DNA of 64,000 nt from Rhizophagus irregularis. Lineage: Eukaryota. Position numbers and translations under genes: made by a program. Of this stretch, positions 4,485 to 54,166 are shown in pieces. The first letter of the stretch is position 1; each line of letters begins with the position of its first letter. Location of the stretch: positions 992,001-1,056,000 of the forward strand of contig NC_089430.1 in NCBI RefSeq assembly GCF_026210795.1, read 5' to 3'. The notes beneath the pieces are model-generated. The model was given only the letters and a program-made list of their open reading frames with translations. It was not told the DNA's origin and made no database searches.

Positions 4485-4645
4485 GTAACCTTATCATCAG
4501 GTATCCTTGCATTTTTTCGACAAGGACTGATGACCATGTAACCTTATCATCAGGTATCCTTTCATTTTTTCGACAAGGATTGATGACCATGTAACCTTAT
4601 CATCAGGTATCCTTGCATTTTTTAATAAGGACTGATGACCGTGTC
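4485..4645. repeat. 3 x 53-bp tandem repeat in element intergenic region
   Basis: GTAACCTTATCATCAGGTATCCTT... at 4485, 4538 and 4591. Equivalent array at ~21212-21366. Confidence 0.9.
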
Positions 4646-4705
4646 ACTTGGTTATTGTAAATTGAAGAAAACTATTAGGTATGTAGACACGTACAGAAAA
4701 AAGAC

Positions 4706-5287
4706 ATGTCTTACCCTTATATAGCTAACCCTATAACTGGATGTCCAATTATTATCGGTGGAGATACCTTTAATCGAATAGTTATGGAATCCCATGATTA
4801 TATTGATGGAAGGCTTGTCCGTAGACAAACTGCACCTCCACCTGAAGAGCAACCTGTATATTTGAATACAGATACAGGACGTTATGTTCGACGTGGTACT
4901 AGAACATATCATAGACTGATTGAGAGTGACTATGAGGTAGTTGAGGATTACTACCTTGTCCATTATGAAGAAGAGGCGCTTATAAAGGAAATCATCAATG
5001 AAACACGCTATAATGAGGAAAATCTTGATGGGCAGCGGTTAACTTTCAATGATATACAACAAATCAGGGCCGCTATTCAGGCTGACCAAGATGAATATAA
5101 TGATTTTATCTTACAGCAAGATATGACTAACGGGACACCTTCCTCTGGTCCTTCCGGTCGTCCACGAACTTTGGAGGACCATACCCCGAGACTTGCAGAG
5201 CTTAATATTGAGTTGTGTAGGGAATGTCTCATGCCTGTAAGCCCAAGTGACTTAACGGACAAGTTGTGCAAGGACTGCTCCGAATAG
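4706..5287 (+). CDS. Hypothetical protein with two NPxTGR-type motifs and C-terminal CxxC...CxxC
   Basis: NPITG(C/R)PIIIGGDTFNRI and NTDTGRYVRRGTRTYHRL resemble the viral 2-cysteine-adaptor motif. CRECL...CKDC at the C-terminus. Conserved in element 2. Confidence 0.65.
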   Translation: MSYPYIANPITGCPIIIGGDTFNRIVMESHDYIDGRLVRRQTAPPPEEQPVYLNTDTGRYVRRGTRTYHRLIESDYEVVEDYYLVHYEEEALIKEIINETRYNEENLDGQRLTFNDIQQIRAAIQADQDEYNDFILQQDMTNGTPSSGPSGRPRTLEDHTPRLAELNIELCRECLMPVSPSDLTDKLCKDCSE

Positions 5288-5332
5288 TTACTTAATTTTG
5301 AATAATTCTTTTTTACATAAAGAAAGATAGCC

Positions 5333-5893
5333 ATGTCAACATCAATCGTAATAAACCAATGCCAAAACTGTGGAGTAATCACTCCAAAAACAGCATATAG
5401 AGGATTATCCAGCGTGTTGTATAGACAGATTATAAAGAAGATTGGCGACGAGAGTGAACCTTTACAAGCCTTGGGACTTGCTAGGGATAAGTTAGTTCAG
5501 ATCATTCGTCGGGGAAGTAATGTGGACTTTACACAATTGTTTACACAAAAACTGGATATGAATATTATGGATGGAGAGCCATATGAAGATATTAGGAAGT
5601 GGCTTCTCGAACAGCTTATAGCCATAGGTTATGACAGTGGAGAAATTGCTTTATATCAATTTCTAAGGGATACATATCCAGATGGTATTGACAAGCCTTT
5701 CACTACATTCTATGAGAACTATGTAAATCATATAAGTAATCCAATGACTAAGAACTTTGCTTCTCGTGCTTTAGGAGCAATAGGGTTGAAGGCTAAGATG
5801 TTAAGGATTGACTTTGAAGGCCGTAAAAAAAGTGCTATGATTCTTAGAGCTTCTGCAGACGAATTACTTGATATTCTCACAAGATACTATTAA
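5333..5893 (+). CDS. 186-aa protein with N-terminal CxxC and C-terminal putative winged-helix domain
   Basis: Intact in both elements. C-terminal ~80 aa align by eye to the helicase C-terminal domain at 16260-16500. Confidence 0.7.
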   Translation: MSTSIVINQCQNCGVITPKTAYRGLSSVLYRQIIKKIGDESEPLQALGLARDKLVQIIRRGSNVDFTQLFTQKLDMNIMDGEPYEDIRKWLLEQLIAIGYDSGEIALYQFLRDTYPDGIDKPFTTFYENYVNHISNPMTKNFASRALGAIGLKAKMLRIDFEGRKKSAMILRASADELLDILTRYY

Positions 5894-11134: not shown

Positions 11135-11165
11135 TTGAATTTTATTCTAACTTAGTTTAAATACT

Positions 11166-11963
11166 ATGTCGACATCAACACCAATTCCAGTTTATACTCC
11201 TTCAGAACCTACTGGACCGCCTCCTGCACACTTGGTCAATGAAAAAGACGATGATGAATTAGTTAGAATACTAAAGGCTCATGCAAATTTATTGACTACC
11301 AGGGGTCGTTTAACTGTTGATTCAGAGATACAGGAGGCAAATAATCAAATCAAACATATTATTAATATATTAATGTATCGCTGTAAAGCAAAACATGAAG
11401 AACTTGGTATTACAAAAGATTTGTTAGTTTTTGCACAAGGTAAGATAAATGCATTTGATGAAACGTTTACTAATTTAGAACGTCAATTAGTTATTATACG
11501 TGCTGCCAATGATAATTTCATAGAAGAAAACCATAACCTGCAAAGAGATTATGATACTATGGTAGAGCTTCGTCGACGGGCTATAGGTGAACGTAATCAG
11601 GCACGACATGAACGTAATGTATTACAAGCAGATTATACTCAAGCAGTAAGGGATCGTAATGAGGCTCAAAATGCTGTGAATCGTGGTAATATCCTTTTAA
11701 ATCATTGGCGGCTGAGGGCTACTCGGACTGGAGGATAACTTGTATTGGTTAATGCGCAACTTGGACAGGTTAATGCACAGCTAGCACATGCTAATAATAG
11801 GGTGCGTTTTGGGATTCAGACATTAGGGAGACTTAGAAATAGACTTTTCCAACAGATAGCTGCTCTTAGAATTCAGGTACAATGGTTTCGAATTAGACAA
11901 TTGAACCCTCCTCCACCTATATTAAACAATCCACTAGAGACGATATGGCTACCACTGCGATAG
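11166..11963 (+). pseudogene. Coiled-coil protein upstream of gag (one premature stop at 11736)
   Basis: Two in-frame ORFs separated by TAA, where copy 2 has CAA. Heptad-like sequence. Overlaps the gag start by 19 nt. Confidence 0.7.
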
Positions 11964-13375
11964 GATTGCCGATTTTTGAGGGTAAAGCTACTGATGATAT
12001 TGATACATTTGTTAGGCTTTATATGGGTTATCTTGATACTATTAATCTTAACCCATATGCTGCTGGAGGGCCACCAGAGTCTTGGAAAAGAGCTATGGGT
12101 ATACTTAGAAGCTGCATGGCTGGTGAAGCGGCTGAATGGTTTGATCGAGAAATTACAGGAAAAAATTGGGAACTTTCTGGTATCACTTCAGCTGGTGGAG
12201 CTAATTTAGCTGCTTTTGTAGCATTAGTAATACCAGAAGCTGCAGGAGGACCAAATGCAGGTACCTATGTAAATGGGTCTGAAGCACAAATCTATTCAAG
12301 AGATCCAGTTAATGCATTAGTAACTATTAGAGCAGCATTTATTCCTACTCATGATTTAATGGGTGGAGATGAAGCTTGGAAAAGAGCTGGTGCTCGTTTG
12401 ACAGATAGAGCTGCTCCGGCTACTGCAGATGCTGGTGTTGCTGTTAATAATAATCATCCTATAGTTTTTCCAGGTATTAAACCTAATCAGGCACTTTATT
12501 GGCTTAGAACACAATTTCCAACTGTTTTAGATGAAAAGAAACGTATCCGTTTTAACAGTCTTTACCAGGAAAATGAGCCAGTTGATGCATTTTATAGAAC
12601 TGTAAAGAGGGCTGGAAAATTATTAAGACTAACTGATGATCTTATTATCGACCAGTTCTTTAGAGGTCTTTCGGCTGATAATATTTTTGAAGCAGAAAGG
12701 TTTCACAATCTTAATCCTGATGACTTGGTTAAACATCTGAGAAATTTAAAACGGAGAAGGGCTGAAATGCGCTTGGGGTTACAAGATAGAAATCGGCGAC
12801 TTTGAGCAGATTACAGTAATGCAACTCAACCTCCATTAGGAAAACAGGAACCTGTCGTACTGACATCAAAGTCAACTGAGGTTACTCAAGAACAATTACA
12901 AGAGTTGCTTAAGGCTCAGGCTGAAGAACTTACCAAGAATTTTCAGGTGCAATTTAAACAATTACAGGCTCGGCCAGTTCGTAATCCACCAGTCTATAGA
13001 CAGCAGATTAAACCTGTTCGACCAAAACCACAGAGACGTGTTATTCAGGATCCTCAGGATCCTGATTGGGATGATGGTTATGTAGATCATGATGTTGGTG
13101 ATGATCCTGATGCTCCTGAGTGGACTTTGGATGATCATCAAAATGCTATTGATCTTATTATGGGATATAAACGTGGGACGTCTAAAATACTTACAAAACA
13201 ACTTCAGAAGGCTAAAGATAGACGTGATGATCTGGATTTGGCCTGAGCAATGAGAAACCTCGATCTTAATGATGATGCTATGGACATTGATACTGCGAGT
13301 TTTGGTGAAAAGGTAGAATTGAGAGAAAAAGATGGTGATGTCTATATGGTTCGTGTTGGGTCAAAAAAAAAGTAG
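11945..13375 (+). pseudogene. Ty3/retrotransposon Gag-like capsid protein (two premature stops)
   Basis: LPIFEGKATDDIDTF..., MAGEAAEWF, LYQENEPVDAFY and QFFRGL parallel the gypsy Gag at 55772 (IEPFSGKEDED, LRGAASDWY, LRQGSNETVDDY, MFLFGL). Stops at 12803 and 13244 are sense codons in copy 2. Confidence 0.8.
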
Positions 13376-14112
13376 GTTCGAGTATCTCAAAACTTCTTAA
13401 GTCGTCCCCAAATAAGACAGCAGTTAGCTCTTCTAGTGTGCCATTGAAAGGCAAAGCAACCCCTGTTAAGATTCCTGTGAAAGTTACTGGTAGTAAGTCT
13501 ACACCTGCAAAAGCTGTTACTAAGAATGACTTATTAAGCCTGTTAAGGTCTGCAGACTTTAGGAAATTACTCCGTGAGATTCTTCAGGAGGAGTTATTGT
13601 CTGCTAGAAAAGTCACAGAGATTCCGGAGGACCTAGTTGAGGAGGAACAAGAAGAGGATATCAGGGTAGACGATCCTATGGATATTGACATAGCTCGTTT
13701 AGAGAATACTAAAGATCTTTTAGCACTGGATGGGGAGGTTAATGGAATAGCAATTCAGTGTTTAGCAGACACTTGTGCTAATGCGTCTTTTATTCAGAGA
13801 GAAGCTACTGAGGAATTAGGGTTGGATATCGACAAGAGTATTACATACAACATATTTGGTGCTTCAGGAACAGGTAGGACATTCAGCATGGTAAAGGGAG
13901 TGTTAATCAAACTTACCCCTGATTATGCTATCACTGAGGATCTTGCAGTCTTAAGTGGTTACAAGCATAGGGAAATTGGGTTAAGCCGAACGTGTCTGAA
14001 ACGTTACAATTATAATATCCATGAATCACGTAAACATATAGCCTTTACCTGTGATGGGAAGAATGTTTTTATCCCGATAGTTCCTGATGCTAATCGAGAG
14101 GATAAAAAATAA
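13372..14112 (+). CDS. Retropepsin-like aspartic protease (-1 frame relative to gag)
   Basis: GEVNGIAIQCLADTCANASFIQREATEELGL, with a C-terminal EIGLSRTCL in place of ILGxD. Frame opens at the A9 run at the gag end. Confidence 0.8.
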   Translation, partial: VGSSISKLLKSSPNKTAVSSSSVPLKGKATPVKIPVKVTGSKSTPAKAVTKNDLLSLLRSADFRKLLREILQEELLSARKVTEIPEDLVEEEQEEDIRVDDPMDIDIARLENTKDLLALDGEVNGIAIQCLADTCANASFIQREATEELGLDIDKSITYNIFGASGTGRTFSMVKGVLIKLTPDYAITEDLAVLSGYKHREIGLSRTCLKRYNYNIHESRKHIAFTCDGKNVFIPIVPDANREDKK

Positions 14113-14136
14113 GACCCTTTAATTCTTCTATTTTTT

Positions 14137-15264
14137 TTATTCCCAAAATTTGCAAATTAAGTCAGGGACATCCTCCTTCAATTGGTCAGCAGGTTCCCAA
14201 GTAGCCTCAGTGTCTGGATAGCGCTCCCACTTAACCAAATACTGGTCTTGACCTTTTCTAATGCGATGCCGAAGTATCTGCTCAGGAACAAATCTTTCAG
14301 GTTGTCCTCTTATCACAGAGTCAGGTGGAGGCTTTTCATTAATAGGAACTACTTGCAATTCCTTTCGGGTATATGCACATCTGGATACACCTAATCGACC
14401 ATGTGGTCCATTAAGGAGATATGTAGGAGGCTGTTCGGGTGAGAGTATCATTTTTTTGATTACACGAATGTTTGGGTTCCATCTTATGTCTCCTGTACGG
14501 AATTTTCCGTGAAGTTTATTACCAAGTACTGAGATAGGTTCATCTAACTTGACTCTGACACGTGCTCCTTCAGAGAGGAGATCCGTCTTTTTTGACACTT
14601 TGGGTGACCCTGTCGGAATGTCTGGGGGATTTCTCTGCCAGAGTTCATTTACTTTACTCACTATATTATGGAAATCTTCTGACCATTCCACGGATGTCAC
14701 CCCAATTTTCAACTCCTGTGCTACCATTCGTTTAAGAAGGGGTTCTTGGATGGCTTGGATAGCTCTTTCAGCATAAGATTGCTGTTTATGCCTTCCTGGC
14801 TCTCCGAACCTCATCATTACCCCTAGGCTGTTCAGGAAAAAATCACGTACCTGGTCGTTAGTGAATTCTGATCTGGAGTCTGTCTCCAGTCGGTGTGTTG
14901 GAGGCTTGATACGATTTCTTTTGTAGATTTTGACAAACCCGTTTAGAACTCTATTTGCAGTCTTATCCTTTAGGGGTTCTGCATCAACTCTCTTTCCTGC
15001 AACTTCTACCACTACGAGAAAATAGTGGAATCCTTTGGGGTCAACTGGCATCTCTGCAAGATCTGCCTGATGTGTTGCATTTGGTTTCCATACAATTACC
15101 TTTGGGCGTTCTGTTGACTTCTCCTTTAGGGGCTTTTTGTATAGGTTGTAGTGCTCCTCACCTTTTAGAATTCGTGCTGGTACTCCAGAGAGATTGTAGT
15201 ATTTGTAATAATTCTCTAAATGCGACATATTACGACAAATTAAAGGAATGGTTTTAGACTTCAA
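14137..15264 (-). CDS. Retroviral-like (rve/DDE) integrase with C-terminal chromodomain
   Basis: HQADL, LETDS(G/R)SEF and SYAERAI provide the D,D,E triad. PEQILRHRIRKGQDQYLVKWERYPDTEATWEP is a chromodomain. No HHCC domain seen. Confidence 0.92.
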   Translation of the reverse strand: MKSKTIPLICRNMSHLENYYKYYNLSGVPARILKGEEHYNLYKKPLKEKSTERPKVIVWKPNATHQADLAEMPVDPKGFHYFLVVVEVAGKRVDAEPLKDKTANRVLNGFVKIYKRNRIKPPTHRLETDSRSEFTNDQVRDFFLNSLGVMMRFGEPGRHKQQSYAERAIQAIQEPLLKRMVAQELKIGVTSVEWSEDFHNIVSKVNELWQRNPPDIPTGSPKVSKKTDLLSEGARVRVKLDEPISVLGNKLHGKFRTGDIRWNPNIRVIKKMILSPEQPPTYLLNGPHGRLGVSRCAYTRKELQVVPINEKPPPDSVIRGQPERFVPEQILRHRIRKGQDQYLVKWERYPDTEATWEPADQLKEDVPDLICKFWE

Positions 15265-15272
15265 ATCTTAAA

Positions 15273-15593
15273 ATGACACGTTTTTACTGCCTAAAGTGCA
15301 AGAAGGAAACTGAGACGGCTAGTGAAATACAAGATATGACTACAAATGGGCGTTACCGGCTGCATAATGACTGCACAATTTGTGGTATGCATAAGAATAC
15401 TTTTACTGGAATAGACTGGGTGATCAAGAAGAAGACTAAGGAGAAAAGGAAAGAAACCGCTGCTAAGAGACAGCAGACGGCTTATAATCGGCAATGCAAA
15501 AAACTTGGACAGAAAATCTTAGATTCTGATGACGCGTGTAAACAGTGTATTGATAAATGCCTTAAGGAGGCAAAAAAGAGGAAGACGGATTAG
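15273..15593 (+). CDS. Small zinc-ribbon protein (DUF5679-like) with basic tail
   Basis: FYCLKCKK...TTNGRYRLHxDCTICG pattern. Confidence 0.65.
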   Translation: MTRFYCLKCKKETETASEIQDMTTNGRYRLHNDCTICGMHKNTFTGIDWVIKKKTKEKRKETAAKRQQTAYNRQCKKLGQKILDSDDACKQCIDKCLKEAKKRKTD

Positions 15594-15632
15594 TACTGTC
15601 TTCTAAACTTATCTGGATATGCTCTATTCTCA

Positions 15633-16205
15633 ATACCCATTGTTCAATTACTTATTTTTTCTGACGGGGAAAGTGGCCATAGTTCGGTGGTCATAGTTCG
15701 GCGGTCATAGTTTGGTGTCCCAGGTATGTAGATAAAGGGTGGTCATAGTTCGGCGGTCATAGTTCGGTGGTCATAGTTCGGCGGTCATAGTTCGGTGGCA
15801 TAGTTCGGTGTCTCAGGTAAGTAGATAAAGGGTGGTCATAGCTTAAATCGGGTTTTGGAGCCTGAGGGGCTAACTAAGGTGGCCATAGTATTATCATAAG
15901 TTTTTTGAACTGTGGCCAGTACTATGACCGGATATTCTGTCTGATTTCAGCTTTATTCGCGTTTTTATCCACTTTTTAGTAGTCTGGTCATAGTGGTCAT
16001 AGTGGTCATAGTAGTTTTATATATAAGAAAAAATGGATAAAAAAAAGGAGTTGGAAAGTAGTGTGACCAGCCATGGCCACTGTGGCCATGGTAGTAGTAT
16101 ATATGGGGGATTCCTGATCCCCCGTAGGGGGGATATAGGTACTGCGACGGGTCGTAGACCCGGAGGTGGGTGGTGCTTGCACCTCCCACATCCAGCCTGA
16201 TGACT
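15633..16205. repeat. Right terminal inverted repeat of element 1 with GGTCATAGT-type internal repeats
   Basis: Inner ~37 bp and outer ~100 bp shared with 28580-29048 and the reverse complement of 53682-54153. Confidence 0.8.
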
Positions 16206-17705
16206 GGGAATCCACCACCTATGACAACATCTAAGCAGGATCACATTATATCGACTCTTCCACCCCTATTTCAATTCATAAAGGACACTTACCTCATAGT
16301 AAAAAATCATATAACCGACCTACCTGTTCAAGAATTTTATAGGGTATATACTTCATACTGTGAAACTCATTGCATCTCACCATTATCAAAGATAAACGCT
16401 TCTAGAATCCTATCAAATGAGTTGAGTATAAATAGTAATCGGACTTATATAAATAAAAAGTTAACCCGAGTATATAGCATATCCAGGGAGGATCTTTACA
16501 AGAAATATCTCGGCAAAAAATGGATCCACGAAACAGATGAAATCAATATAGAAGGAATAGATGTAGAAACTCCTGAGAAGCCCGCATCTGATCCAAATGC
16601 CTTGGTGAAATTCTTGGCAAATATATATAATCCAGCTAGTAAATCACAAGTAGATCAAGAGGAAGTGGAGCTAGTTGTTGAGAAACCTGCTGAGGAAAAA
16701 CCCGCTCCTGTTGAAGAAAAACCTACTGAAAAGCAACCAGTTGCTCAAAAGGCTCCTCCACCAGTACCACCTAAACCTGATTACTTGAAGGTAAAACCTG
16801 CACCTGTCATTAAAGAGGATCCTATTCCTGAGGAATCTCCAGCTCCCATAGAGTCAGATACTAATGAAATTATAGACAGTTTCTCAGACTGTTATCTATC
16901 TGATGAGAAACCTGATCAAGAAAATGAACCGCCTGCTGAGGAACCTGCATTTGAAGCTGATGATGACTACGACGTTTTAGATGACTTGCTATCTAACTCA
17001 GATCCTACAACTGCAGACCAAGTTCCTGAGCAACAACCCGAGTCTCCTGCAGAATCTTCAGCAAAATCCAAATCTCTCGCAGATTCCAAATCTTCAACAG
17101 AACCTTTAGTAGAACTGACTCTCAAAGAGCAACCTATCCCAGAACCCAACACAGAACTAGAAGTTGACTGGGATCCTGAACCAAAGGAAGGTACTCGAGC
17201 ACACTGGGCTTGGCATGAAAGGCACCGATGGGATCATAAGCCATGGGTCAAGAATTCAAAGGACCAGGTCTTCAATGATCTCTACAATACAGGTAAGGAT
17301 TTATGGGCTAAGTACCAAAACGCGTCAGATGAGTATGACTGGGAAATACTTGCGTTTGAAGTAGAGGAATGTCCCACAACGCGTATTGAGGACGAGTACC
17401 AGTACTACTTTAGGGAGGTAGTAGACCACTTCAAGGACTGGATCGAATATAATGGGAACTCACCTAAAACACCTAGCCGTAAAGAACTCGCAAATCTAAT
17501 AAGAGTATACAAGGAGGATCGTGATGCCGAGATTATCCCTACTACTTCTGGTTATGAAACTATGAAGATGAATAAAGGTAAGGCACGAGAAATCCCAGAG
17601 GAACATCCAAAAACTGATATGGAACGTGAATGGGAGGCCGCCAATGGAATCATCGATGACTGGGACGAAGAGGATACTGAGGGCGCTATCAACGACATAT
17701 TGTAA
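16206..17705 (+). pseudogene. 3' part of D5-like primase-helicase gene (wHTH + Pro/Glu tail), 5'-truncated by element 1
   Basis: GNPPPMTTSKQDHII...LFQFIKDTY...FYRVYTSYCE resembles the post-SF3-helicase region. The called ORF start lies inside the element 1 TIR. Confidence 0.65.
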
Positions 17706-17789
17706 GTGCTATTTGAGATTATTTCTTTTTTTTTCGTATATATATAGAAAGATATTATTTATAGTTGAAAACAAATCATATACATAAAA

Positions 17790-19646
17790 ATGCAATACTC
17801 AAGAATCGCCCGCACTTTACCAACACGACCTGACATCAAGGAACTTCAGTATTCCGGTACCCGCTTTTCCAGAGGAGCTATTGCCAGACTCAGTCAGACT
17901 CTCCAGGCGCGATTTCCAGATAGAAAGTTCCAGATCCTACTTCCTTATGAAAACTGGAAACCCGGTGGATGAACATCAGGAAACCAACCAGCCAGCCTCT
18001 TCTCACTCTTGGACCACTATGATGAAGTACAACTACCGGATGATGCAGATTCTGATTACTTTGAACGATTCATAATTTATGTGAGACATGCTCCACCGGT
18101 TGCAGGGGGATGCAATGGGGAGCTAAATGATTGCCTGTATGAATGCCTGAAGCATATCTATGGTATATTCTCTAAAATACCTGAGACTATAAAAAAGCCT
18201 GAATATATCAAAAAGGCATTAGGTCTCAATCGTGATGCTCCAGTTCCAGTCTCATATATGGATAAGATTGAACAACTTGCAGGAAGCCTTGCACTTAATA
18301 TTGTAGGGGATTCCACTCAAATTTCCAAGAGCAAATCTGACAGACGTGCAACCCTCATCCTGTCTGAAGGCCACTACTCTCTTGCACTGAATCCTGGAAG
18401 ACTTCACCCTAGTAAATTAGATAGAAAACAAAAGTCTCCCTTTGTTTATCGTGAAGATGGGGTTAATAATGTAGTGACAATATACAATGGTAAGACAGTT
18501 AAGTCTCTTACAGTTGGACAGTTTCAGAAAGGTAAGAACTCTGATAGTTACTCCTTCATCCCTATTGAGAAGAATCGTAAAACTGGAATATATGAAACAC
18601 TTGAGGAAACATACCAGAGGATCCATGAAGAGCGGGATTCCTTTCTACAAGCTACAAAGAAGTTCAGTCTAGGAATCGACTTATCTTACCACAACTGGTC
18701 GTACAAGAGAACTGCTCTCTGGCTTTTTGAACGGTTTAGTGTAAGTGTTCCAGCTAATGATCCTCTTGATCCAGTCGAAGCAGAGTGGATAAGTGATGCA
18801 ATGATGGGAGGTCTTATCTGGGCAGATAATGAATGGAAGGGCTATGGAAGACAATACAACGTGACAAGTTTGTATCCAAGTATTCAGCAATCGAATGCTA
18901 ACTTTCCAATCCAACAAGGTAAGTTTCAAATACTCAAAGACTTTGTAGACCACAGAGGTTATGCCTTGTATGAATTATTTCGTGCTAAGGTAAGTGGTAA
19001 TGACATTCTCTTCTGACATAATAAGAGGGGAGTCTATACATTCATTGACTTACAACGAGCAAAGAAACTTGGTCTTGATATACAGTTAATCCAGGATGGA
19101 AAGCCAAATGCCTTGATATATGACAGAGAAGCAAGAATTCCTGGGACTGTAATATTTGGTGAGTATGTTCACTTTCTCTTCAATATAAAGAACCAGGGTG
19201 GCGTGGCTAGTCGTATTGCAAAGAGAGTTCTCAATACATTATGGGGAGCACTCTGCCAGAGGAAACGCAATTACAAGACACTCACCACAGATCAAACAGA
19301 TCCATTCAAGTTTCCGGAAGGCCACACACTTGACTCCATCATACCAGTAGGATCTGACTAGTGGCAATTCCAATTCACAAACCCAGGTAGTCCCTTCAAG
19401 GGTGAGTATCCTAGGATTGCTCCATTCTTATTAGCACATGGACGGAAGATGACTTCAGAGTTATTAGAACCATATAAGGATAAAGTACGACGCATCCATA
19501 CAGATGGATTTATTCTAGAGGAACAGCCGAGTAGTCCTACACTTATCACTTGTCCAGAAAATGCATCCAAAGCATTGAAAGCTCTCAAGTTTGAAACCGC
19601 AGGATACTGCCATGTGAAAAATGCAAACAAGGTTATCTGGACATGA
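17790..19646 (+). pseudogene. pPolB of element 2, disrupted
   Basis: Same motifs as element 1. In-frame stops at 17970, 19014 and 19359; motif A Asp changed to Asn (YNVTSLYP). Confidence 0.85.
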
Positions 19647-22061: not shown

Positions 22062-22622
22062 ATGTCAACATCAATCGTAATAAACCAGTGCCAAAACTGT
22101 GGAGTAATCACTCCAAAAACAGCACATAGAGGATTATCCAGTGTATTATACAGACAGATTATAAAGAAGATTAGTAATGAGAATGACCCTCTACAAGCCT
22201 TGGGACTTGCTAGGGATAAGTTAGTTCAGATCATTCGTCGGGCAAGTAATGTGGATTTTACACAATTGTTTACACAAAGACTGGATATGAAAATTATGGA
22301 TGGAGAGCCATATGAAGATATTAGGAAGTGTCTTCTTGAACAGCTTATAGCCATAGGTTGTGATAGTGGAGAAATTGCCTTATATCAATTTCTAAGGGAT
22401 ACATATCCAGATGGTATCGACGAGCCTTTCAATACATTCTATGAGAACTATGTAAATCATATAAGTAATTCAATGACTAAGAACTTTGCTTCTCGTGCTT
22501 TAGGAGTAATAGGGTTGAAGGCTAAGATGTTAAGGATTGACTTTGAAGGCCGTAAAAAAAGTGCTATGATTCTTAGAGCTTCTGCAGACGAATTACTTGA
22601 TATTCTCACAAGATACTATTAA
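22062..22622 (+). CDS. 186-aa putative wHTH protein (element 2)
   Basis: Homologue of 5333-5893. Confidence 0.7.
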   Translation: MSTSIVINQCQNCGVITPKTAHRGLSSVLYRQIIKKISNENDPLQALGLARDKLVQIIRRASNVDFTQLFTQRLDMKIMDGEPYEDIRKCLLEQLIAIGCDSGEIALYQFLRDTYPDGIDEPFNTFYENYVNHISNSMTKNFASRALGVIGLKAKMLRIDFEGRKKSAMILRASADELLDILTRYY

Positions 22623-23829
22623 TCCCTACTTGTAATGCTCGACGGTCCATGTGGCTCTTAGAAAAGATCTGTAGAAGGACTTCAATACCTTCTATTATTT
22701 TTTTATTATCCAGAGGGCGACTAGACTTCAGGGCTTCATATCGGGAGAATAACTCCTTCACATTTTCAGTTTTCAGAGTTTCAGTCTTTGCAGTCCTACC
22801 CTGTACTTTTGCTAAGAAGTCCTGAAAGTCAGCTCCTAGGGTCTTACCAGAGAATCCATAAGCTTCCCGAAAGATAAATTTAATCCAGGTATCTGTATTC
22901 TTGGCTAAAACACCAGGTACAAGTAAATGTTGACGCTCTTTAGGGGATGGAAATACCCGAGCAAATTCAATCAAGTGTCCACCTTTTTTTGCTTCAGATA
23001 CAGCTTTCTGACCATAGGGACTAAACTTGGATCGAACTGTGATTGAACTGGATTCAGACTGAGATCGAACTGGGTTCAAACTTGGATCAAACTGAGATTG
23101 AACTGAGATTGAACTAGGATTGAACTGAGATTGCTCTGTGATCGAACTGAGACTAGTATCCCATCTTACTCGAATAGACAGTGGATCACTCTTGGACCAT
23201 CTAAGATCAAACACTACAAATTCACGTTGCAGAGTAAGATCATCAATTACTGGTGCTAATGATTCTGATTCTTCTGTATATAGGCGGATGATTCTCTTAG
23301 TATCTGTAAGGCTCCCATGACCTCCATGCAGTAAGATGTAGTTAACATTTTCTCGAATAGCCTTAGGAATGGCAAAGAATCTTTGGGCTACATAAATACA
23401 TGAAATATTTTTGTGTCGTCCATGTGTAAAGTAACCAGTGATGAGATCCTGGATTTTTTTAGGTGCATCCATCAGATCCTCGAAGATTACCACAGTAGCT
23501 TGAGTAGGATCGAAGGAGTCAATCTCTGGAATCTCACTATGGGTTACTGCAGTGAATGGGATCTTTTCCTCTTCGAAAAAATCATGTACAACTGCCCACT
23601 TCAGCTCGTCAAGATATCTGCCAACTAAAAGTACTGCATCACATAGTACATACCGATTACCATCCTCCTTTGCCTTCTTGTCACCCATTAACAAGTTAAT
23701 GATCATAGTTGTTTTACCTGAGTCTGAGCTACCTGCTACGGCTAATCGAAAGGGCCATGATGGAGCAAACTCATTGCCTTGTCTTGAGTCGGTCGTGTAC
23801 TCGTCCAAATTGTATACATAAAGATCCAT
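22606..23829 (-). CDS. A32-like packaging ATPase, intact, with Ser/Gln repeat linker and C-terminal extension
   Basis: Walker A GSSDSGKTT, Walker B VVIFEDL, and FTHGRHKNISCIYVAQ...IPKAIRENVNY, typical of poxvirus A32/Polinton ATPases. Confidence 0.92.
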   Translation of the reverse strand: MDLYVYNLDEYTTDSRQGNEFAPSWPFRLAVAGSSDSGKTTMIINLLMGDKKAKEDGNRYVLCDAVLLVGRYLDELKWAVVHDFFEEEKIPFTAVTHSEIPEIDSFDPTQATVVIFEDLMDAPKKIQDLITGYFTHGRHKNISCIYVAQRFFAIPKAIRENVNYILLHGGHGSLTDTKRIIRLYTEESESLAPVIDDLTLQREFVVFDLRWSKSDPLSIRVRWDTSLSSITEQSQFNPSSISVQSQFDPSLNPVRSQSESSSITVRSKFSPYGQKAVSEAKKGGHLIEFARVFPSPKERQHLLVPGVLAKNTDTWIKFIFREAYGFSGKTLGADFQDFLAKVQGRTAKTETLKTENVKELFSRYEALKSSRPLDNKKIIEGIEVLLQIFSKSHMDRRALQVGINSIL

Positions 23830-23860
23830 TTGAATTTTATTCTAACTTAGTTTAAATACT

Positions 23861-24658
23861 ATGTCAACATCAACACCAATTCCAGTTTATATTCCTTCAG
23901 AACCTACTGGACCGCCTCCTGCACACTTGGCCAATGAAGAAGACGATGATGAATTAGTTAGAATACTAAAGGCTCATGCAAATTTATTGACTACCAGGGG
24001 TCGTTTAACTGTTGATTCAGAGATACAGGAGGCAAATAATCAAATCAAACATATTATTAATATATTAATGTATCGCTGTAAAGCAAAACATGAAGAACTT
24101 GGTATTACAAAAGATTTGTTAGTTTTTGCACAAGGTAAGATAAATGCATTTGATGAAACATTTACTAATTTAGAATAACAATTAGTTATTATACGTGCTG
24201 CCAATGATAATTTCATAGAAGAAAACCATAACCTGCAAAGAGATTATGATACTATGGTAGAGCTTCGTCAACGGGCTATAGGTGAATGTAATCAGGCATG
24301 ACATGAACGTAATGTATTACAAGCAGATTATACTCAAGCAGTAAGGGATCGTAATGAGGCTCAAAATGCTGTGAATCGTGGTAATATCCTTCTAAATCAT
24401 TGGCGGCTGAGGGCTACTTGGACTGGAGGACAACTTGTATTGGCTAATGTGCAACTTGGACAGGTTAATGCATAGCTAGCACATGCTAATAATAGGGTGC
24501 GTTTTGGGATTCAGACATTAGGGAGACTTAGGAATAGACTTTTCCAACAGATAGCTGCTCTTAGAATTCAGGTACAATGGTTTCGAATTAGACAATTGAA
24601 CCCTCCTCCACCTCTTTTAAACAATCCACTAGAGACGTTATGGCTACCACTGCGATAG
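23861..24658 (+). pseudogene. Coiled-coil protein upstream of gag (element 2), several stops
   Basis: Collinear with 11166-11963. Confidence 0.7.
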
Positions 24659-26094
24659 GATTGCCAATTTTTGAGGGTAAAGCTACTAATGATATTGATA
24701 CATTTGTTAGGCTTTATATGGGTTATCTTGATACTATCAATCTTAACCCATACGCTGCTGGAGGGCCACCAGAGTCTTAGAAAAGAGCTATGGGTATACT
24801 TAGAAGCTGCATGGCTGGTGAAGCGGCTGAATGGTTTGATCGAGAAATTACAGGAAAAAATTGGGAACTTTCTGGTATCACTTCAGCTGGTGGAGCTAAT
24901 TTAGCTGCTTTTGTAGCATTAGTAATACCAGAAGCTGCAGGAGGACCAAATGCAGGTACCTATGTAAATGGGTCTGAAGCACAAATCTATTCAAGAGATC
25001 CAGTTAATGCATTAGTAACTATTAGAGCAGCATTTATTCCTACTCATGATTTAATGGGTGGAGATGAAGCTTGGAAAAGAGCTGGTACTCGTCCGACAGA
25101 TAGAGCTGCTCTGGCTACTGCAGATGCTGGTGTTGCTGCTAATAATAATCATCCTATAGTTTTTCCAGGTATTAAACCTAACCAGGCGCTTTATTGGCTT
25201 AGAACACAATTTCCAACTGTTTTAGATGAAAAGAAACGTATCCGTTTTAACAGTCTTTACCAGGAAAATGAGCCAGTTGATGCATTTTATAGAACTGTAA
25301 AGAGGGCTGGAAAATTACTAAGACTAACTGATGATTTTATTATCGACCAGTTCTTTAGAGGTCTTTCAGCTGATAATATTTTTGAAGCAGAAAGGTTTCA
25401 CAATCTTAATCCTGATGACTTGGTTAAATATCTGAGAAATTTAGAACAGAGAAGGGCTGAAATGCGCTTGGGGTTACAAGATAGAAATCGGCGACTTCAA
25501 GCAGATTACAGTGATGTAACTCAACCTCCGTTAGGAAAACAGGAACCTGTCGTACTGACATCAAAGTCAACTGGGGTTACTCAAGAACAATTACAAGAGT
25601 TGCTTAAGGCTCAGGCTGAAGAACTTACCAAGAATTTCCAGGTGCAATTTAAACAATTACAGGCTCGACCAGTTTGTAATCTACCAGTCTATAGACAGCA
25701 GATTAAACCTGTTCGACCAAAACCACAGAGACGTGTTGTTCATGATCATCAGGATCCTGATTGGGATGATGGTTATGTAGATCATGATGTTGGTGATGAC
25801 CCTGATGCTCCTGAGTGGACTTTGGATGATCATCAAAATGCTATTGATCTTATTATGGGATATAAACGTGGGACGTCTAAAATACTTACAAATCAACTTC
25901 AGAAGGCTAAAGATAGACGTGATGATCTGGATTTGGCCCGAGCAATGAAAAACCTTGATCTTAACGATGATGCTATGGACATTGATACTGTGAGTTTTGG
26001 TGAAAAGGTAGAATTGAGAGAAAAAGATGGTGATGTCTATATGGTTCGTGTTGGGTCAAAAAAAAGTAGGTTCGAGTATCTCAAAACTTCTTAA
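24640..26094 (+). pseudogene. Gag-like capsid protein (element 2), one stop at 24778
   Basis: Collinear with 11945-13375; open for 434 aa after the TGG>TAG lesion. Confidence 0.8.
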
Positions 26095-26806
26095 GTCTTC
26101 CCCAAATAAGACAGCAGTTAGCTCTTCTAGTGTGCCCTTAAAAGGCAAAGCAACCCCTGTTAAGATTCCTGTGAAAGTTACTGGTAGTAAGTCTACACCT
26201 GCAAAAGCTGTTACTAAGAATGACTTATTAAGCCTGTTAAAGTCTGCAGACTTTAGGAAATTACTCTGTGAGATTCTTCAGGAGGAGTTGATGTCTGCTA
26301 GAAAAGTCACAGAGATTTCAGATGACTTAGCTGAGGAGGAACAAGAAGAGGATATCAGGGAATACGATCCTATGGATATTAATATAGTTCGTTTGGAGAA
26401 TATTAAAGATCTATTAGCACTTAATGGGGAGGTTAATGGAATAGCAATTCAGTGTTTAGCAGACACTTGTGCTAATGCGTCTTTTATTCAGAGAGAAGCT
26501 GCTGAGGAATTAGGGTTGGATATCGACAAGAGTATTACATACAACATATCTGGTGCTCCAGGAACAGGTAGGACATTCGGCATGGTAAAGGGAGTGTTAA
26601 TCAAACTTACCCCTGATTATGCTATCACTGAGGATCTTGCAGTTTTAGATGGATACAAGCATAGGGAAATTGGATTGAGCCAGACGTGTCTGAAACGTTA
26701 CAATTATAATGTCCATGAATCACGTGAACATGTCGCCCTTACCTGTGATGGGAAGAATGTTTTTATCCCGATAGTTCCTGATGTGAATAGAGGAGACAAA
26801 AAATAA
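26066..26806 (+). CDS. Retropepsin-like aspartic protease (element 2)
   Basis: LADTCANASFI motif; overlaps the gag end at the A8 run. Confidence 0.8.
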   Translation, partial: VGSSISKLLKSSPNKTAVSSSSVPLKGKATPVKIPVKVTGSKSTPAKAVTKNDLLSLLKSADFRKLLCEILQEELMSARKVTEISDDLAEEEQEEDIREYDPMDINIVRLENIKDLLALNGEVNGIAIQCLADTCANASFIQREAAEELGLDIDKSITYNISGAPGTGRTFGMVKGVLIKLTPDYAITEDLAVLDGYKHREIGLSQTCLKRYNYNVHESREHVALTCDGKNVFIPIVPDVNRGDKK

Positions 26807-26831
26807 GACCCTTTAATTCTTCTATTTTTTT

Positions 26832-27959
26832 TTATTCCCAAAATTTGCGAATTAAGTCAGGGACATCTTCCTTCAACTGGTCAGCAGGTTCCCAAGTGGC
26901 TTCTGTATCTGGGTATCTCTCCCACTTAACCAAATACTGGTCTTGACCTTTTCTAATGCGATGCCGAAGTATCTGCTCAGGTACAAATCTTTTGGGTTGT
27001 CCTCTTATCACAGAGTCAGGTAGAGGCTTTTCATTAATAGAAACTACTTGCAATTCCTTTCGGGTATATGCACATCTGGATACACCTAATCGACCATGTG
27101 GTCCGTTAAGAAGATATGTAGGAGGTTGTTCAGGTGAGAGTATCATTTTTTTGATTACACGAATGTTTGGGTTCCATCTTATGTCTCCTGTACGGAATTT
27201 TTCGTGAAATTTGTTACCTAGTACAGAAATAGGTTCATCTAACTTGACTCTGACACGTGTTCCTTCAGAAAGGAGGTCTGTCTTTTTTGATACTTTAGGT
27301 GATCCTGTCGGAATGTCTGGGAGATTTCTCTGCCAGAGTTCATTTACTTTACTCACTATATTATGGAAATCTTCTGACCATTCCACAGATGTCACCCCGG
27401 TTTTCAACTCTTGTGCAACCATTCGTTTTAGGAGAGGTTCTTGGATTGCTTGGATGGCTCGTTCGGCATATGACTGCTGTTTATGTCTACCTGGTTCGCT
27501 GAACCTCATCATTACCCCTAGGCTGTTCAGGAAAAAATCACGTACCTGGTCGTTAGTGAATTCTGATCCGGAGTCCGTTTCCAGTCGGTGTGTTAGTGGC
27601 TTGATACGATTTCTTCTGTAGATTTTGACAAACCCGTTTAGAACTCTATTTGCAGTCTTATCCTTTAGGGGTTCTGCATCAACTCTCTTTCCTGCAACTT
27701 CCACCACTATGAGAAAATAGTGGAATCCTTTGGGGTCAACTGGCATCTCTGCAAGATCTGCCTGATGTGTTGCATTTGGTTTCCATACAATTACCTTTGG
27801 GTGTTCTGTTGACTTTTCCTTTAAAGGCTTTTTGTATAGGTTGTAGTGCTCTTTACCTTTTAAAATTCGTGCTGGTACTCTGGATAGACTGTAGTACTTG
27901 TAGTAATTCTCTAATTGTGACATATTACGACAAATTAAAGGAAAGATTTCAGACTTCAA
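26832..27959 (-). CDS. Chromodomain-bearing DDE integrase (element 2), intact
   Basis: HQADL / ETDSGSEF / YAERAI plus chromodomain. Confidence 0.92.
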   Translation of the reverse strand: MKSEIFPLICRNMSQLENYYKYYSLSRVPARILKGKEHYNLYKKPLKEKSTEHPKVIVWKPNATHQADLAEMPVDPKGFHYFLIVVEVAGKRVDAEPLKDKTANRVLNGFVKIYRRNRIKPLTHRLETDSGSEFTNDQVRDFFLNSLGVMMRFSEPGRHKQQSYAERAIQAIQEPLLKRMVAQELKTGVTSVEWSEDFHNIVSKVNELWQRNLPDIPTGSPKVSKKTDLLSEGTRVRVKLDEPISVLGNKFHEKFRTGDIRWNPNIRVIKKMILSPEQPPTYLLNGPHGRLGVSRCAYTRKELQVVSINEKPLPDSVIRGQPKRFVPEQILRHRIRKGQDQYLVKWERYPDTEATWEPADQLKEDVPDLIRKFWE

Positions 27960-27967
27960 ATCTCAAG

Positions 27968-28539
27968 ATAACACGATTTTACTGTCTAAAGTGCAAGAAG
28001 GAAACTGAGACTGCTAGTGAAATACAAGATATGACTACAAATGGGCGTTACCGGCTGCATGGTGACTGCACAATTTGTGGTATGCATAAGAATACTTTTA
28101 CTGGAGTAGACTGGGTGATCAAGAAGAAGACTAAAGAGAAAAAGAAAGAACCCGCTGCTAAGAGACATCAGACGGCTTACAATTGGCAATGCAAAAAACT
28201 TGGACAGAAAATCTTAGATTCTGATGACGCGTGTAAACAGTAAGGTTGCTTGTTAAACCTCTTCAAAATCCTACGATTAGTTTCGTCAAAATTTTACTAT
28301 AGATTTATTATAGTTTTGGCAGAGTTTCGGCAGTTTCGGCATTTATAATAAGTTTTGGCATTTTCACCTTTCTCCAAAGTTTCGCCAGTTTTTTAATATA
28401 ACTTTAATATAGTTTCAGCAGAATTTCGCTTTTCGGCAAAACGCCATCTTGCCTAAACCCCTAGGTTTCGGCAAGCAACCTTAGTAAACAGTGTATTGAT
28501 AAATGCCTTAAGGAGGCAAAAAAGAGGAAGACGGATTAG
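27968..28539 (+). pseudogene. DUF5679-like protein (element 2): start mutated (ATA) and interrupted by hAT MITE
   Basis: Matches 15273-15593 when 28241-28483 is removed. Confidence 0.7.
28241..28483. mobile_element. 243-bp hAT-type MITE
   Basis: TIR TAAGGTTGCTTG...CAAGCAACCTTA and 8-bp TSD GTAAACAG. Empty site in element 1. Confidence 0.92.
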
Positions 28540-28579
28540 TACTGCCTTCTAAAAGTATTCTTTATCATCTGAATCGTCT

Positions 28580-29048
28580 TGGTATACCCATTGTTCAATT
28601 ACTTATTTTTTCTGACGGGGGCGGGACGGAGTTGGTCTTACTGGCTCTATAGACCTTCTAGGGGCTTACCTGCTAACTTACCTGGTTTGCTATCTCACTG
28701 CTTCCGACAGATGAATAGACTGAATCCTGATCATATGATAGAACTATGACAGAATGACAGATCTGGGGGGTAAAATCAAAACTTTTTTCTGGAGATATCC
28801 TCTCCCGATTTTTCTGAAACATCTGTCATATCTGTCATATCTGTCATGCCTCTCTGATTCTATCGTATTTTCCTCTCTTTTCCCTTATTTTATCCTTTTT
28901 TAGTATATTGTTATATGACAGATGTTAATGACAGATGGTGACAGATATAGGGGATTCCTGAGCCCCGTAGGGGCCATATAGGTACTGCGACGGGTCGTAG
29001 ACCCGGAGGTGGGTGGTGCTTGCACCTCCCACATCCAGCCTGACGACT
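28580..29048. repeat. Right TIR of element 2 (~470 bp)
   Basis: Aligns along its length with the reverse complement of 53682-54153. Confidence 0.85.
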
Positions 29049-54153: not shown

Positions 54154-54166
54154 TAAGTAACATACA

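What the first reader, a model, noticed from the sequence alone, without database searches (positions are those of the whole stretch)
22606..27959. Polinton-like DNA element that appears to use a retrotransposon-type Gag + aspartic protease in place of the jelly-roll capsid module
Seen: two copies (also 5877-15264) of a TIR-bounded element carry pPolB, D5-like helicase, A32-like packaging ATPase and chromo-integrase, plus a coiled-coil ORF, a Ty3-like Gag and a retropepsin between the ATPase and the integrase. There is no RT, RNase H, LTR, PBS or TSD around this module, and the integrase is on the opposite strand, so it looks like a stable part of the element rather than a retrotransposon insertion. 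Established: canonical Polintons pair the A32 ATPase with double/single jelly-roll capsid proteins and an adenain-like cysteine protease; none is recognisable among the ORFs here. Inference: a chimeric DNA mobile element or virus whose shell is built from retroviral-fold CA matured by an aspartic protease, possibly filled with dsDNA by the ATPase. I am not aware of this combination having been described.
Basis: partly seen in the sequence, partly recalled or inferred. Interest (0 to 1): 0.93.

Follow-up and report, generated by a model that had tools for sequence, protein, structure and literature searches.

The report
Fungal Polinton with retrotransposon-type capsid
A family of self-copying DNA elements in root-symbiotic (mycorrhizal) fungi has no recognisable copy of the shell genes of its viral relatives and instead keeps, under selection and next to its predicted DNA-packaging motor, a protein predicted to fold like a retrotransposon capsid plus a retroviral-type protease, so it likely moves its DNA inside a borrowed retroviral-type coat.

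Summary
Two 95%-identical, decayed copies of a Polinton-like element (host Rhizophagus, by homologues) carry pPolB, SF3 helicase, A32 ATPase and chromo-integrase. Between ATPase and integrase lie coiled-coil, Gag and retropepsin genes.

The module is integral:
- In 25 metagenomic loci (Gag 29-95% identical) the ATPase lies upstream in 14 of 14 informative loci, the integrase downstream in 6 of 7, RT in 0 of 25.
- Two overlapping contigs give a whole element between inverted ends, 96% coding, with no room for a double-jelly-roll capsid.
- Gag models as two-domain retroviral CA with a ~100-residue insertion, has dN/dS 0.19-0.37, and ends at an A AAA AAA/G slip site with protease in the -1 frame (13 loci).
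- A related virus sharing helicase, pPolB, ATPase and integrase has a jelly-roll capsid block beside its ATPase instead.

Particles, DNA packaging and protease activity are untested, and gag RNA was near zero in three runs. It is not wholly unseen: a Starrett 2021 figure legend lists 'Matrix/Capsid/NC/Pro' among PolB elements, without discussion in the sections read. Interest 0.85.

The parts
16206..17705 (+). Copy 2: C-terminal part of the D5-like SF3 helicase (winged helix plus acidic tail); the 5' part is cut off by the right end of copy 1
   Evidence: Pox_D5 E 8e-4; matches the intact 797-aa helicase of L003, which carries DUF5906 and Pox_D5
17788..19646 (+). [quoted passage not shown]
   Evidence: PF03175 E 1.5e-6; copy 1's polymerase is 47% identical to the intact 626-aa ORF of L003
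19897..22622 (+). Copy 2: four small ORFs (164 aa unknown; 141 aa F-box; 220 aa 2-cysteine adaptor; 190 aa unknown, possibly winged helix)
   Evidence: atlas leads under 0.9 only and no usable hit
22606..23829 (-). Copy 2: A32/FtsK-like packaging ATPase, open frame, head-to-head with the coiled-coil gene (31 nt between start codons)
   Evidence: Pox_A32 E 2.3e-9; Walker A invariant in 11 of 11, later motifs kept in the 10 rows that reach them; spacing
23861..24658 (+). Copy 2: coiled-coil ORF with three internal stops; its stop codon lies 16 nt inside the gag start
   Evidence: L016's coiled coil is homologous to the N-terminus of the one-ORF CC-CA-knuckle-protease protein P0354 (E 7e-8)
24640..26094 (+). 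Copy 2: Gag (two-domain CA with ~100-aa insertion, no zinc knuckle); one internal stop, slip site damaged
   Evidence: models of copy 1's CA; fold searches
26018..26806 (+). Copy 2: spacer plus retropepsin-type aspartic protease (D-T-C motif); no RT follows
   Evidence: Asp_protease_2 E 1.9e-7; motifs
26832..27923 (-). Copy 2: RVE integrase with C-terminal chromodomain, no H2C2 finger
   Evidence: 34% to the integrase of virus L026 versus 24% over 107 aa to the resident Gypsy integrase; tree
27963..28540 (+). Copy 2: DUF5679 zinc-ribbon ORF, interrupted by a ~243-bp insertion at about 28242-28484 (limits approximate)
28580..29048 (.). Copy 2: right terminal repeat, ending in CT, with a triple 9-nt repeat inside
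   Evidence: 83% inverted match to 53683-54153
1..16205 (+). Copy 1 (left end outside the window): same gene order. ATPase split by a 4-kb insertion (6636-10665); CC 11160-11963; Gag from 11945 with two internal stops but an intact slip site; protease to 14112; integrase 14137-15228; right end 15633-16205
53682..64000 (+). Copy 3, left part: left terminal repeat (53682-54153), 147-aa ORF, then the helicase N-terminus (63352 onward). An unrelated Gypsy LTR element (54754-63305) is inserted between them
   Evidence: 32% to L003 helicase residues 19-205

Best explanation
This is a Polinton-like DNA element of arbuscular mycorrhizal fungi whose jelly-roll virion genes were likely replaced long ago by a coiled-coil-Gag-protease module likely taken from a Ty3/Gypsy retrotransposon, and it likely uses the predicted Gag shell to carry its own DNA. 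SHOWN: gene content, linkage, selection, the slip-site signature, and no room for a DJR gene. PREDICTED: the CA fold. INFERRED working cycle: (1) an integrated copy is released and copied as linear DNA by helicase and pPolB from the inverted ends; (2) Gag is made in bulk and a minority of ribosomes slip -1 at the A-run to make Gag-protease; (3) CA assembles a retroviral-type shell and the protease trims it; (4) the retained A32 ATPase helps load the roughly 14-kb genome, with the coiled-coil protein as scaffold or adaptor; (5) the chromo-integrase inserts the genome again. A likely advantage in a walled, multinucleate fungus is movement between nuclei and across hyphal fusions without cell lysis. 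That last step rests on general knowledge of retrotransposon capsids and was not tested.
For: Linkage in 25 metagenomic loci: ATPase upstream in 14 of 14 with at least 600 bp of 5' DNA, integrase downstream in 6 of 7 with at least 200 bp after the protease, RT/RNase H in 0 of 25.

Complete relative L003+L002: 12,462 bp between inverted ends, 11 ORFs, 96% covered, largest gap 190 bp, largest unassigned ORF 211 aa.

CA fold: the top 33 rows of two wide structural searches are all retroviral, retrotransposon or Arc-type CA. Best rows: HERV-K Gag Z 9.8, rmsd 6.9, 150 aligned; PEG10 CTD Z 9.2, rmsd 2.5, 84 aligned.

dN/dS: Gag 0.19-0.37 in the 10 printed pairs with dS over 0.1; protease 0.13-0.37.

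Slip heptamer at 13 of 13 intact gag ends versus 0 of 28 other ORF ends.

ATPase motifs kept, dN/dS 0.08-0.21 in diverged pairs.

Virus L026 shares helicase, pPolB, ATPase and integrase and has a DJR MCP (PF21738 E 1.2e-13, over cut-off) in a gene block head-to-head with its ATPase, the slot Gag-Pro holds here.
Against: No particle, packaging or binding data. A32-type pumps are known (own knowledge) only with jelly-roll or related shells, and retroviral CA lattices have no known portal.

Z-scores of 8-10 are moderate for helical folds, and Foldseek gave no E under 0.001.

Bases 24346-25213 (end of CC, first half of gag) had zero depth in three RNA runs with about 11 million reads read each.

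No co-divergence signal between ATPase and Gag (Mantel rho 0.03, p 0.44, 7 lineages; ATPase tree unresolved). L013 shows a CA swap (CC 92%, CA 39% to the window).

The glycine of the D-T/S-G motif is kept in only 3 of 12 proteases. No stable RNA structure follows the slip site in 11 sites tested.

The scan started from Gag, so ATPase-bearing elements without Gag would be missed. One Gag-protease locus (L017, sister clade) has no integrase in the 816 bp after it.
Confidence: 0.57

Rival explanations
1. The element spreads as a capsid-less, self-synthesising transposon. Gag-protease is a selected accessory, for example a dominant-negative or decoy capsid against resident Gypsy elements or a cage for RNA or protein, and the ATPase does something other than packaging.
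For: Gag is more variable than the ATPase and is swapped between subfamilies. It is near-silent in RNA runs. The protease motif is non-canonical in 9 of 12. Capsid-derived restriction factors exist in fungi (Ty1 p22 and Drt2 entries appear).
Against: Restriction factors are usually truncated CA without protease (own knowledge). Here both CA domains, the slip site and the protease are kept together. The module sits in the virion-gene slot beside an ATPase with intact motifs. Krupovic 2014 notes that ATPase and protease tend to be lost together with the MCP, yet the ATPase is kept here.
Confidence: 0.27
2. The ATPase serves a jelly-roll capsid supplied in trans by a helper virus or by other Polinton copies, and Gag-Pro is secondary.
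For: Relatives with DJR capsids share the ATPase, helicase, pPolB and integrase. R. irregularis holds a giant endogenous viral region (listing).
Against: Zhao et al. found no MCP in five R. irregularis strains. They also missed these A32 genes, so their sensitivity to Polinton proteins is limited. No similarity to L026/L027 capsid proteins was found in the window or in L001-L025.
Confidence: 0.07
3. Gag packages an element RNA that is reverse-transcribed by an RT borrowed from resident LTR elements, so the element has a retro-phase.
For: Gag-Pro with a -1 slip site is retroelement machinery. Sister-clade Gags keep a CCHC knuckle.
Against: No LTR, RT or RNase H. The ends are inverted, pPolB is intact in L003, genes lie on both strands, and the window's clade has lost the RNA-binding knuckle.
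Confidence: 0.06
4. A retrotransposon fragment inserted by chance and is decaying.
For: Both window copies carry stops. Two near-identical pairs give dN/dS of 0.82 and 2.03, on very few changes.
Against: Same position and orientation in lineages down to 35% Gag identity, open frames in the metagenomic members, purifying selection, a conserved slip site and a conserved 16-nt overlap. The ATPase and pPolB of the window copies are equally damaged.
Confidence: 0.02

Closest known systems
Glomus/Rhizophagus Polintons P_Gi1.1, P_Gi1.2 and Polinton-1_GI (Krupovic et al. 2014, PMC4028283; passages and Table S1 rows seen)
   Same: Same host group, 11-12 kb. P_Gi1.2 is scored ATPase-positive and MCP-, penton- and protease-negative. 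Probably this family or a relative (not compared by sequence).
   Different: The table has no column for Gag or aspartic protease; they were read as capsid-less transposons.
Unnamed element in Fig. 5 of Starrett et al. 2021 (PMC8502044; legend and sections 10 and 12 read, figure not held)
   Same: [quoted passage not shown] Rhizophagus PolB is named in the Fig. 3 legend. The label fits the one-ORF sister protein P0354.
   Different: I could not see which element or host carries the label, nor whether it has an ATPase. The sections read do not discuss it: no fold, selection, distribution or mechanism.
Polinton-like virus L026 (IMG/VR record, handle G001) and virophage L027
   Same: Homologous SF3 helicase, pPolB (27%), A32 ATPase (26%) and chromo-integrase (34%) in L026; integrase and pPolB in L027.
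   Different: They encode DJR major capsid proteins and gave no Gag match. The fungal element has CC-Gag-Pro beside the ATPase instead.
Ty3/Gypsy retrotransposons (Metaviridae), e.g. the element at window 54754-63305
   Same: Homologous CA, retropepsin, and a gag-pro slip signature.
   Different: No RT, RNase H, LTR or H2C2 integrase; a ~100-aa insertion inside CA-NTD; knuckle lost in the window's clade; DNA polymerase and inverted ends.
Caulimoviridae and foamy viruses; Bidnaviridae (recalled; caulimovirus coat proteins appear as weak rows)
   Same: Caulimoviruses and foamy viruses show that a retroviral-fold CA can hold dsDNA. Bidnaviruses show a Polinton-type pPolB joined to a foreign capsid.
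   Different: The former make their DNA by reverse transcription and have no packaging ATPase. The bidnavirus capsid is a parvovirus-type jelly roll.
Adintovirus 'Cah' proteins (Buck et al. 2024 preprint, PMC11071296; passages)
   Same: A handful are reported as remotely similar to retroviral capsid.
   Different: They are described among the virion proteins of hexon-bearing adintoviruses; no retropepsin is mentioned (0 occurrences).

Membership tests
Polinton/Maverick (Polintoviricetes) | protein-primed PolB | tested here: met
   PF03175 in both copies and in L003; intact 626-aa ORF in L003; L019 carries a different PolB type
Polinton/Maverick (Polintoviricetes) | RVE integrase | tested here: met
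   rve plus Chromo; groups with the L026 integrase, away from the Gypsy integrase, which sits on a long branch
Polinton/Maverick (Polintoviricetes) | terminal inverted repeats, AG...CT termini (rule recalled) | tested here: met
   123 bp, 100% inverted between L003 and L002 (cut by the contig end); 470-bp 83% inverted match between copy 2 right and copy 3 left; CT at 2 of 2 right ends, copy 3's left end begins TG
Polinton/Maverick (Polintoviricetes) | 6-bp target-site duplication | not testable with these tools
   no copy with both outer ends was held; no whole genome
Polinton/Maverick (Polintoviricetes) | A32-like packaging ATPase | tested here: met
Polinton/Maverick (Polintoviricetes) | double jelly-roll major capsid protein | tested here: not met
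   complete coding region 96% covered, largest unassigned ORF 211 aa; no Pfam capsid hit; no match to L026/L027 MCPs
Polinton/Maverick (Polintoviricetes) | single jelly-roll penton | tested here: inconclusive
   no significant hit with a profile of L026's penton candidate (best E 0.19), but the 115-211 aa unassigned ORFs were not folded; atlas leads only
Polinton/Maverick (Polintoviricetes) | adenain-like cysteine protease | tested here: inconclusive
   no Pfam hit; small ORFs not folded
Metaviridae (Ty3/Gypsy) | Gag with two-domain CA fold | tested here: met
   (predicted model, mean pLDDT 79)
Metaviridae (Ty3/Gypsy) | retropepsin after Gag | tested here: met
   Pfam; Asp kept in 12 of 12, Gly in 3 of 12; activity untested
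Metaviridae (Ty3/Gypsy) | reverse transcriptase and RNase H | tested here: not met
   0 of 25 loci; protease frame ends in a stop in 10 of 10 loci that reach it; 0 of 8 longer homologues with a precomputed RT domain; none in 40 distant proteins scanned
Metaviridae (Ty3/Gypsy) | long terminal repeats around gag-pol | tested here: not met
   no direct repeat in 23500-27200; flanks are ATPase and integrase genes 31 and 25 nt away
Metaviridae (Ty3/Gypsy) | integrase in pol, with H2C2 finger | tested here: not met
   separate gene, opposite strand, no H2C2 hit, while the resident Gypsy integrase has one
Metaviridae (Ty3/Gypsy) | particles that package the genome | not testable with these tools
   needs bench work

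The most novel reading that the evidence does not exclude
An uncharacterised class of dsDNA virus of fungi: a cross-realm chimera that replicates with a Polinton protein-primed polymerase but builds its virion from an Ortervirales (retroviral-fold) capsid matured by a frameshift-made retropepsin and filled by an A32 motor. It is spread across Glomeromycota and adapted to move between nuclei of a coenocytic host.
Probability: 0.45. Interest if true: 0.96.

Novelty: new variant of a known kind. Interest (0 to 1): 0.85.

Why it matters
Capsid type is the basis of virus megataxonomy, and the A32 ATPase is treated as part of the jelly-roll module. An element that keeps the ATPase, lost the jelly roll and kept a retroviral-fold capsid and protease under selection would be a capsid swap between two realms, like bidnaviruses or cruciviruses (recalled) but with Gag. 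It would show that a retroviral CA shell can serve a DNA-to-DNA replicon.

It also offers an explanation for the 'capsid-less but ATPase-positive' Glomus Polinton. It gives a testable candidate for a dsDNA virus of fungi, of which Zhao et al. 2023 state none is known (abstract start). Mavericks are among the most recently expanded elements in R. irregularis, so the family may shape the genomes of these plant symbionts.

Tried and rejected
- No whole genome is held, so there was no genome-wide census or TSD test.
- IMG/VR scans with the ATPase, Gag (38) and sister Gag (83) found nothing; only the integrase scan found relatives (95).
- Run search: no RNA holder listed. A second read-laying for other species gave no answer.
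- A -1 frameshift or conserved intron joining CC to Gag was rejected: the gag frame is open only 2 codons upstream in 8 of 20 sequences, no shared slip or splice signal was seen, and RNA reads did not cover the junction.
- No stimulatory hairpin after the gag-pro slip site (z -1.5 to +2.4 in 11 sites).
- ATPase-Gag co-divergence: not detected.
- A suspected integrase piece in Entrophospora model P0273 was not supported.
- The window's CC is not significantly similar to L002's CC by BLASTP; only the C-terminal tail is visibly shared.
- L026's penton candidate is unconfirmed: best solved-structure hint is adenovirus penton at E 0.059, no Pfam.
- In the Gag tree (quick method), rows P0180 and P0181 were probably mis-cut, and the Gypsy outgroup is on a long branch, so no donor or root is claimed.
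- The fold of the CA insertion was not searched alone.
- Rfam: 0 matches in 1-30000.
- Natural intact relatives made a consensus of the two window copies unnecessary.
- Literature: 10 searches listed no paper devoted to this combination. Starrett's supplement zip was cut when stored and gave 0 hits. Its Table S1, the figures and bioRxiv supplements were not seen and may name the element.
- Earlier scan findings: none on this element.

Full report
OBSERVATION. Self-comparison shows two copies of one element, 89-96% identical over about 11.5 kb. Pfam finds in them pPolB, a Pox_D5 winged helix, Pox_A32, an aspartic protease, rve plus chromodomain, F-box, 2C_adapt and DUF5679; Retrotrans_gag is only weak (E 0.011, 0.041). 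Copy 1 runs from before base 1 to 16205 and copy 2 from 16206 to 29048. Only right ends are visible, both ending in CT. Copy 1's end abuts the middle of copy 2's helicase gene, which suggests nesting (inference). A left end at 53682-54153, 83% inverted to copy 2's right end, starts a third copy. Its first ORF and helicase N-terminus are separated by an unrelated Gypsy element. Both full copies are damaged: CC has 1 and 3 internal stops, Gag 2 and 1, pPolB is broken, and copy 1's ATPase holds a 4-kb insertion. Of the 120 listed Gag homologues, all that name an organism name Rhizophagus, the best at 99-100% identity, so the host is an arbuscular mycorrhizal fungus.

IS THE MODULE INTEGRAL? A metagenome scan with a Gag alignment gave 25 loci at 29-95% identity. 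Fourteen have at least 600 bp upstream of gag, and all 14 carry the ATPase there on the opposite strand. They include near-identical sets (L002/3/4, L016/18, L008/19), so about ten lineages. Seven have at least 200 bp after the protease: six carry the integrase on the opposite strand and L017 does not. The resident Gypsy RT/RNase H hit 0 of 25. The protease frame ends in a stop in 10 of 10 loci that reach it. L025 has a truncated gag abutting a helicase gene. Longer homologues (8 found) are CC-Gag-protease gene models with no RT domain, and none of 40 distant relatives scanned had RT. The scan began from Gag, so the reverse question (ATPase elements lacking Gag) is open.

A COMPLETE RELATIVE. 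L003 and L002 overlap by 5.2 kb at 99% and their outer ends match as a 123-bp perfect inverted repeat, cut by the contig end. Between the repeats lie 12,462 bp, 96% covered by 11 open frames, with a largest gap of 190 bp. The frames are helicase 797, pPolB 626, ORF 211, F-box-like 184 (label by eye; no F-box Pfam hit), ATPase 416, CC 457, Gag 444, protease 238, integrase 369, DUF5679 154 and ORF 115. No unassigned frame is long enough for a double jelly roll. A single jelly roll or small cysteine protease among the 115-211 aa frames is not excluded by folding, though no profile hit supports one.

GAG. Copy 1's first 286 residues were modelled with 12 and 43 sequences (mean pLDDT 72.5 and 79.3). 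In both wide structural searches the first 33 rows are retroviral, retrotransposon or Arc-type CA, some spanning both domains. Examples: HERV-K Gag Z 9.8, rmsd 6.9, 150 aligned; PEG10 CTD Z 9.2, rmsd 2.5, 84 aligned. The first unrelated row is at Z 5.2-5.3. Foldseek ranks the same families first but with no E under 0.001. The profile matches the resident Gypsy Gag (91%, E 1.1e-6) across a gap of about 90-100 residues: all members carry a Gly/Ala/Asn-rich insertion in CA-NTD that models as a small mixed domain. Of 19 loci examined at the gag end, 13 reach it intact; five stop early and one runs off, as one search shows. All 13 have an in-frame A AAA AAA/G heptamer with the protease in the -1 frame, against 0 of 28 other ORF ends. 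No stable hairpin follows. The CC stop lies 16 nt inside the gag start in 19 of 20 sequences, 18 of them with a long open CC frame.

SELECTION. Nei-Gojobori estimates, most similar 14 pairs printed per gene. Gag: 0.19-0.37 in the 10 pairs with dS over 0.1; the four near-identical pairs gave 0, 0.39, 0.82 and 2.03. Protease: 0.13-0.37. ATPase: 0.08-0.21 in diverged pairs. Integrase: 0.08-0.34. The ATPase keeps Walker A in 11 of 11 and the Walker B, arginine-finger and glutamine motifs (labels recalled) in the 10 rows that reach them. The protease keeps its aspartate in 12 of 12 but the glycine in only 3 (DTC 6, DSG 2, DSA 2, DSC 1, DTG 1).

ORIGIN. A profile search of 1.84 billion representatives gave 354 hits. 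Those named among 30 looked up are Rhizophagus, Entrophospora, Diversispora, Acaulospora and Racocetra, all Glomeromycota. A sister group has CC in frame with CA, often a CCHC knuckle, then the protease; P0354 is CC-CA-knuckle-protease in one 1081-aa frame without RT. Its N-terminus is homologous to L016's separate CC (E 7e-8). So CC is likely the split-off head of an ancestral Gag (inference; the tree gives no root). The genomic context of that sister group is unknown except for L017. An integrase scan of IMG/VR found L026 and L027. L026 shares helicase, pPolB, ATPase and integrase. It has, head-to-head with its ATPase, a block ending in a 616-aa DJR capsid protein (PF21738, E 1.2e-13, over cut-off, 0 of 14 control genomes). 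L027 has a virophage MCP. Neither gave a Gag match, and their capsid proteins find nothing in the window or L001-L025. The fungal CC-Gag-Pro block thus occupies the slot beside the ATPase that the jelly-roll block holds in L026. L019 pairs the same ATPase-CC-Gag block with a different PolB type, as expected if the block moves as one unit.

RESULTS AGAINST. In three RNA runs of the same species label, 307, 354 and 331 reads of about 11 million lay on the 13-kb copy. Of these, 69-78% ran on into unlike sequence, and 24346-25213 had zero depth: no sign of gag expression in those samples. ATPase and Gag distances do not correlate (rho 0.03, p 0.44), and L013 shows a CA swap. No binding prediction could be obtained. 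ATP-driven filling of a retroviral lattice has no precedent known to me.

MECHANISM. The most likely reading (0.57) is a DNA replicon that uses a Gag shell for its own genome: pPolB and helicase copy linear DNA, Gag and a frameshifted Gag-protease build and mature a shell, the ATPase helps load it, and the chromo-integrase reinserts it. Retroviral-fold shells can hold dsDNA (caulimoviruses, foamy viruses; recalled), and the window's clade has lost the RNA-binding knuckle, which fits DNA cargo. The main rival (0.27) is a capsid-less transposon with Gag-Pro as a selected accessory. A helper jelly-roll capsid (0.07), a retro-phase (0.06) and a decaying insertion (0.02) are less likely.

PRIOR WORK.
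- Krupovic 2014 (PMC4028283; passages and Table S1 rows) scores Glomus Polinton P_Gi1.2 as ATPase-positive and lacking MCP, penton and protease.
- Starrett 2021 (PMC8502044; passages, sections 10 and 12, cut supplement; preprint passages) has in its Fig. [quoted passage not shown] The figure is not held and the sections read do not discuss it, but it probably shows this kind of element.
- A 2026 preprint (10.64898/2026.06.19.733378; passages) places Glomus and Rhizophagus A32 ATPases near Maverick-Polintons and has no occurrence of 'gag'.
- Zhao 2023 (PMC10640383; passages and section 9) found no MCP in five strains.
- Buck 2024 (PMC11071296; passages) notes capsid-like adintovirus Cah proteins.
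- Dallaire 2021 (PMC8647823; passages) lists Mavericks among recent expansions.
- PMC11296320, PMC5751038 and PMC10120064 (passages) add nothing on Gag.
Ten searches listed no dedicated study; subscription journals and unseen supplements may hold one.

VERDICT. A real, conserved, selected architecture. It works like a Polinton in replication and integration and likely like an LTR element in particle assembly. It fails the DJR test for Polintoviricetes and the RT and LTR tests for Metaviridae. Filed as a new variant of a known kind because it was probably glimpsed before and particles are unshown; it would be categorically new if they are shown. Interest 0.85.

Noticed in passing
window 6636-10665: 4,030-bp insertion in copy 1's ATPase, with CACT-starting terminal inverted repeats and a 3-bp target duplication (CACTA-like), mostly internal tandem repeats and no long ORF.
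   Followed up: partly
window ~28242-28484: About 243-bp inverted-repeat insertion in copy 2's DUF5679 ORF with an apparent 8-bp target duplication. It is the RNA read peak of the region, with loose ends on both sides, so probably a high-copy MITE.
   Followed up: partly
window 54754-63305: Young Gypsy LTR retrotransposon (493-bp LTRs, 99% identical; gag-pro, RT-RNase H, H2C2 integrase, and an extra 246-aa coiled-coil ORF on the minus strand at 61702-62442) inserted in the third element copy.
   Followed up: partly
window 15594-16205, 28580-29048, 53682-54153: The terminal repeats share their outer ~105 bp and an inner block, but each holds a different triple 9-nt repeat at a similar place. 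These may be iteron-like sites for the helicase's winged helix; the helicase region is also the most diverged between copies (89%).
   Followed up: partly
window 42862-46216: Transposase_21 (Plavaka/CACTA-type) ORF of 784 aa plus a 304-aa ORF, minus strand.
   Followed up: no
window 34509-35529: 1-kb nested palindromic (foldback) element, 89% self-complementary.
   Followed up: no
window 50541-51680 and 37651-38391: Tandem arrays of an 84-bp unit (about 10 copies, 97-98%) and a 187-bp unit.
   Followed up: no
window 41502-42626 and 49260-50359: Two diverged (64%) copies of a multi-exon-looking gene with an Asn/Asp-rich tail and a Ser/Arg/His-rich upstream exon.
   Followed up: no
L019:371-901: An element with the same ATPase-CC-Gag block but a YTDTD-type pPolB rather than the HTDG type, pointing to exchange of replication modules.
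   Followed up: partly
L013: CC 92% identical to the window but CA only 39%, with a window-like gag end: a CA-domain swap between subfamilies.
   Followed up: partly
L026 (handle G001): 23-kb virus record with inverted ends and at least two paralogous capsid-like genes; possibly a multi-capsid PLV and the nearest viral relative found.
   Followed up: partly
window 23829-23861 and equivalents in L002, L006, L016, L019, L021: Divergent start codons are only about 31-76 nt apart and genes are intronless with short AT-rich leaders, more like a virus than a host gene.
   Followed up: partly
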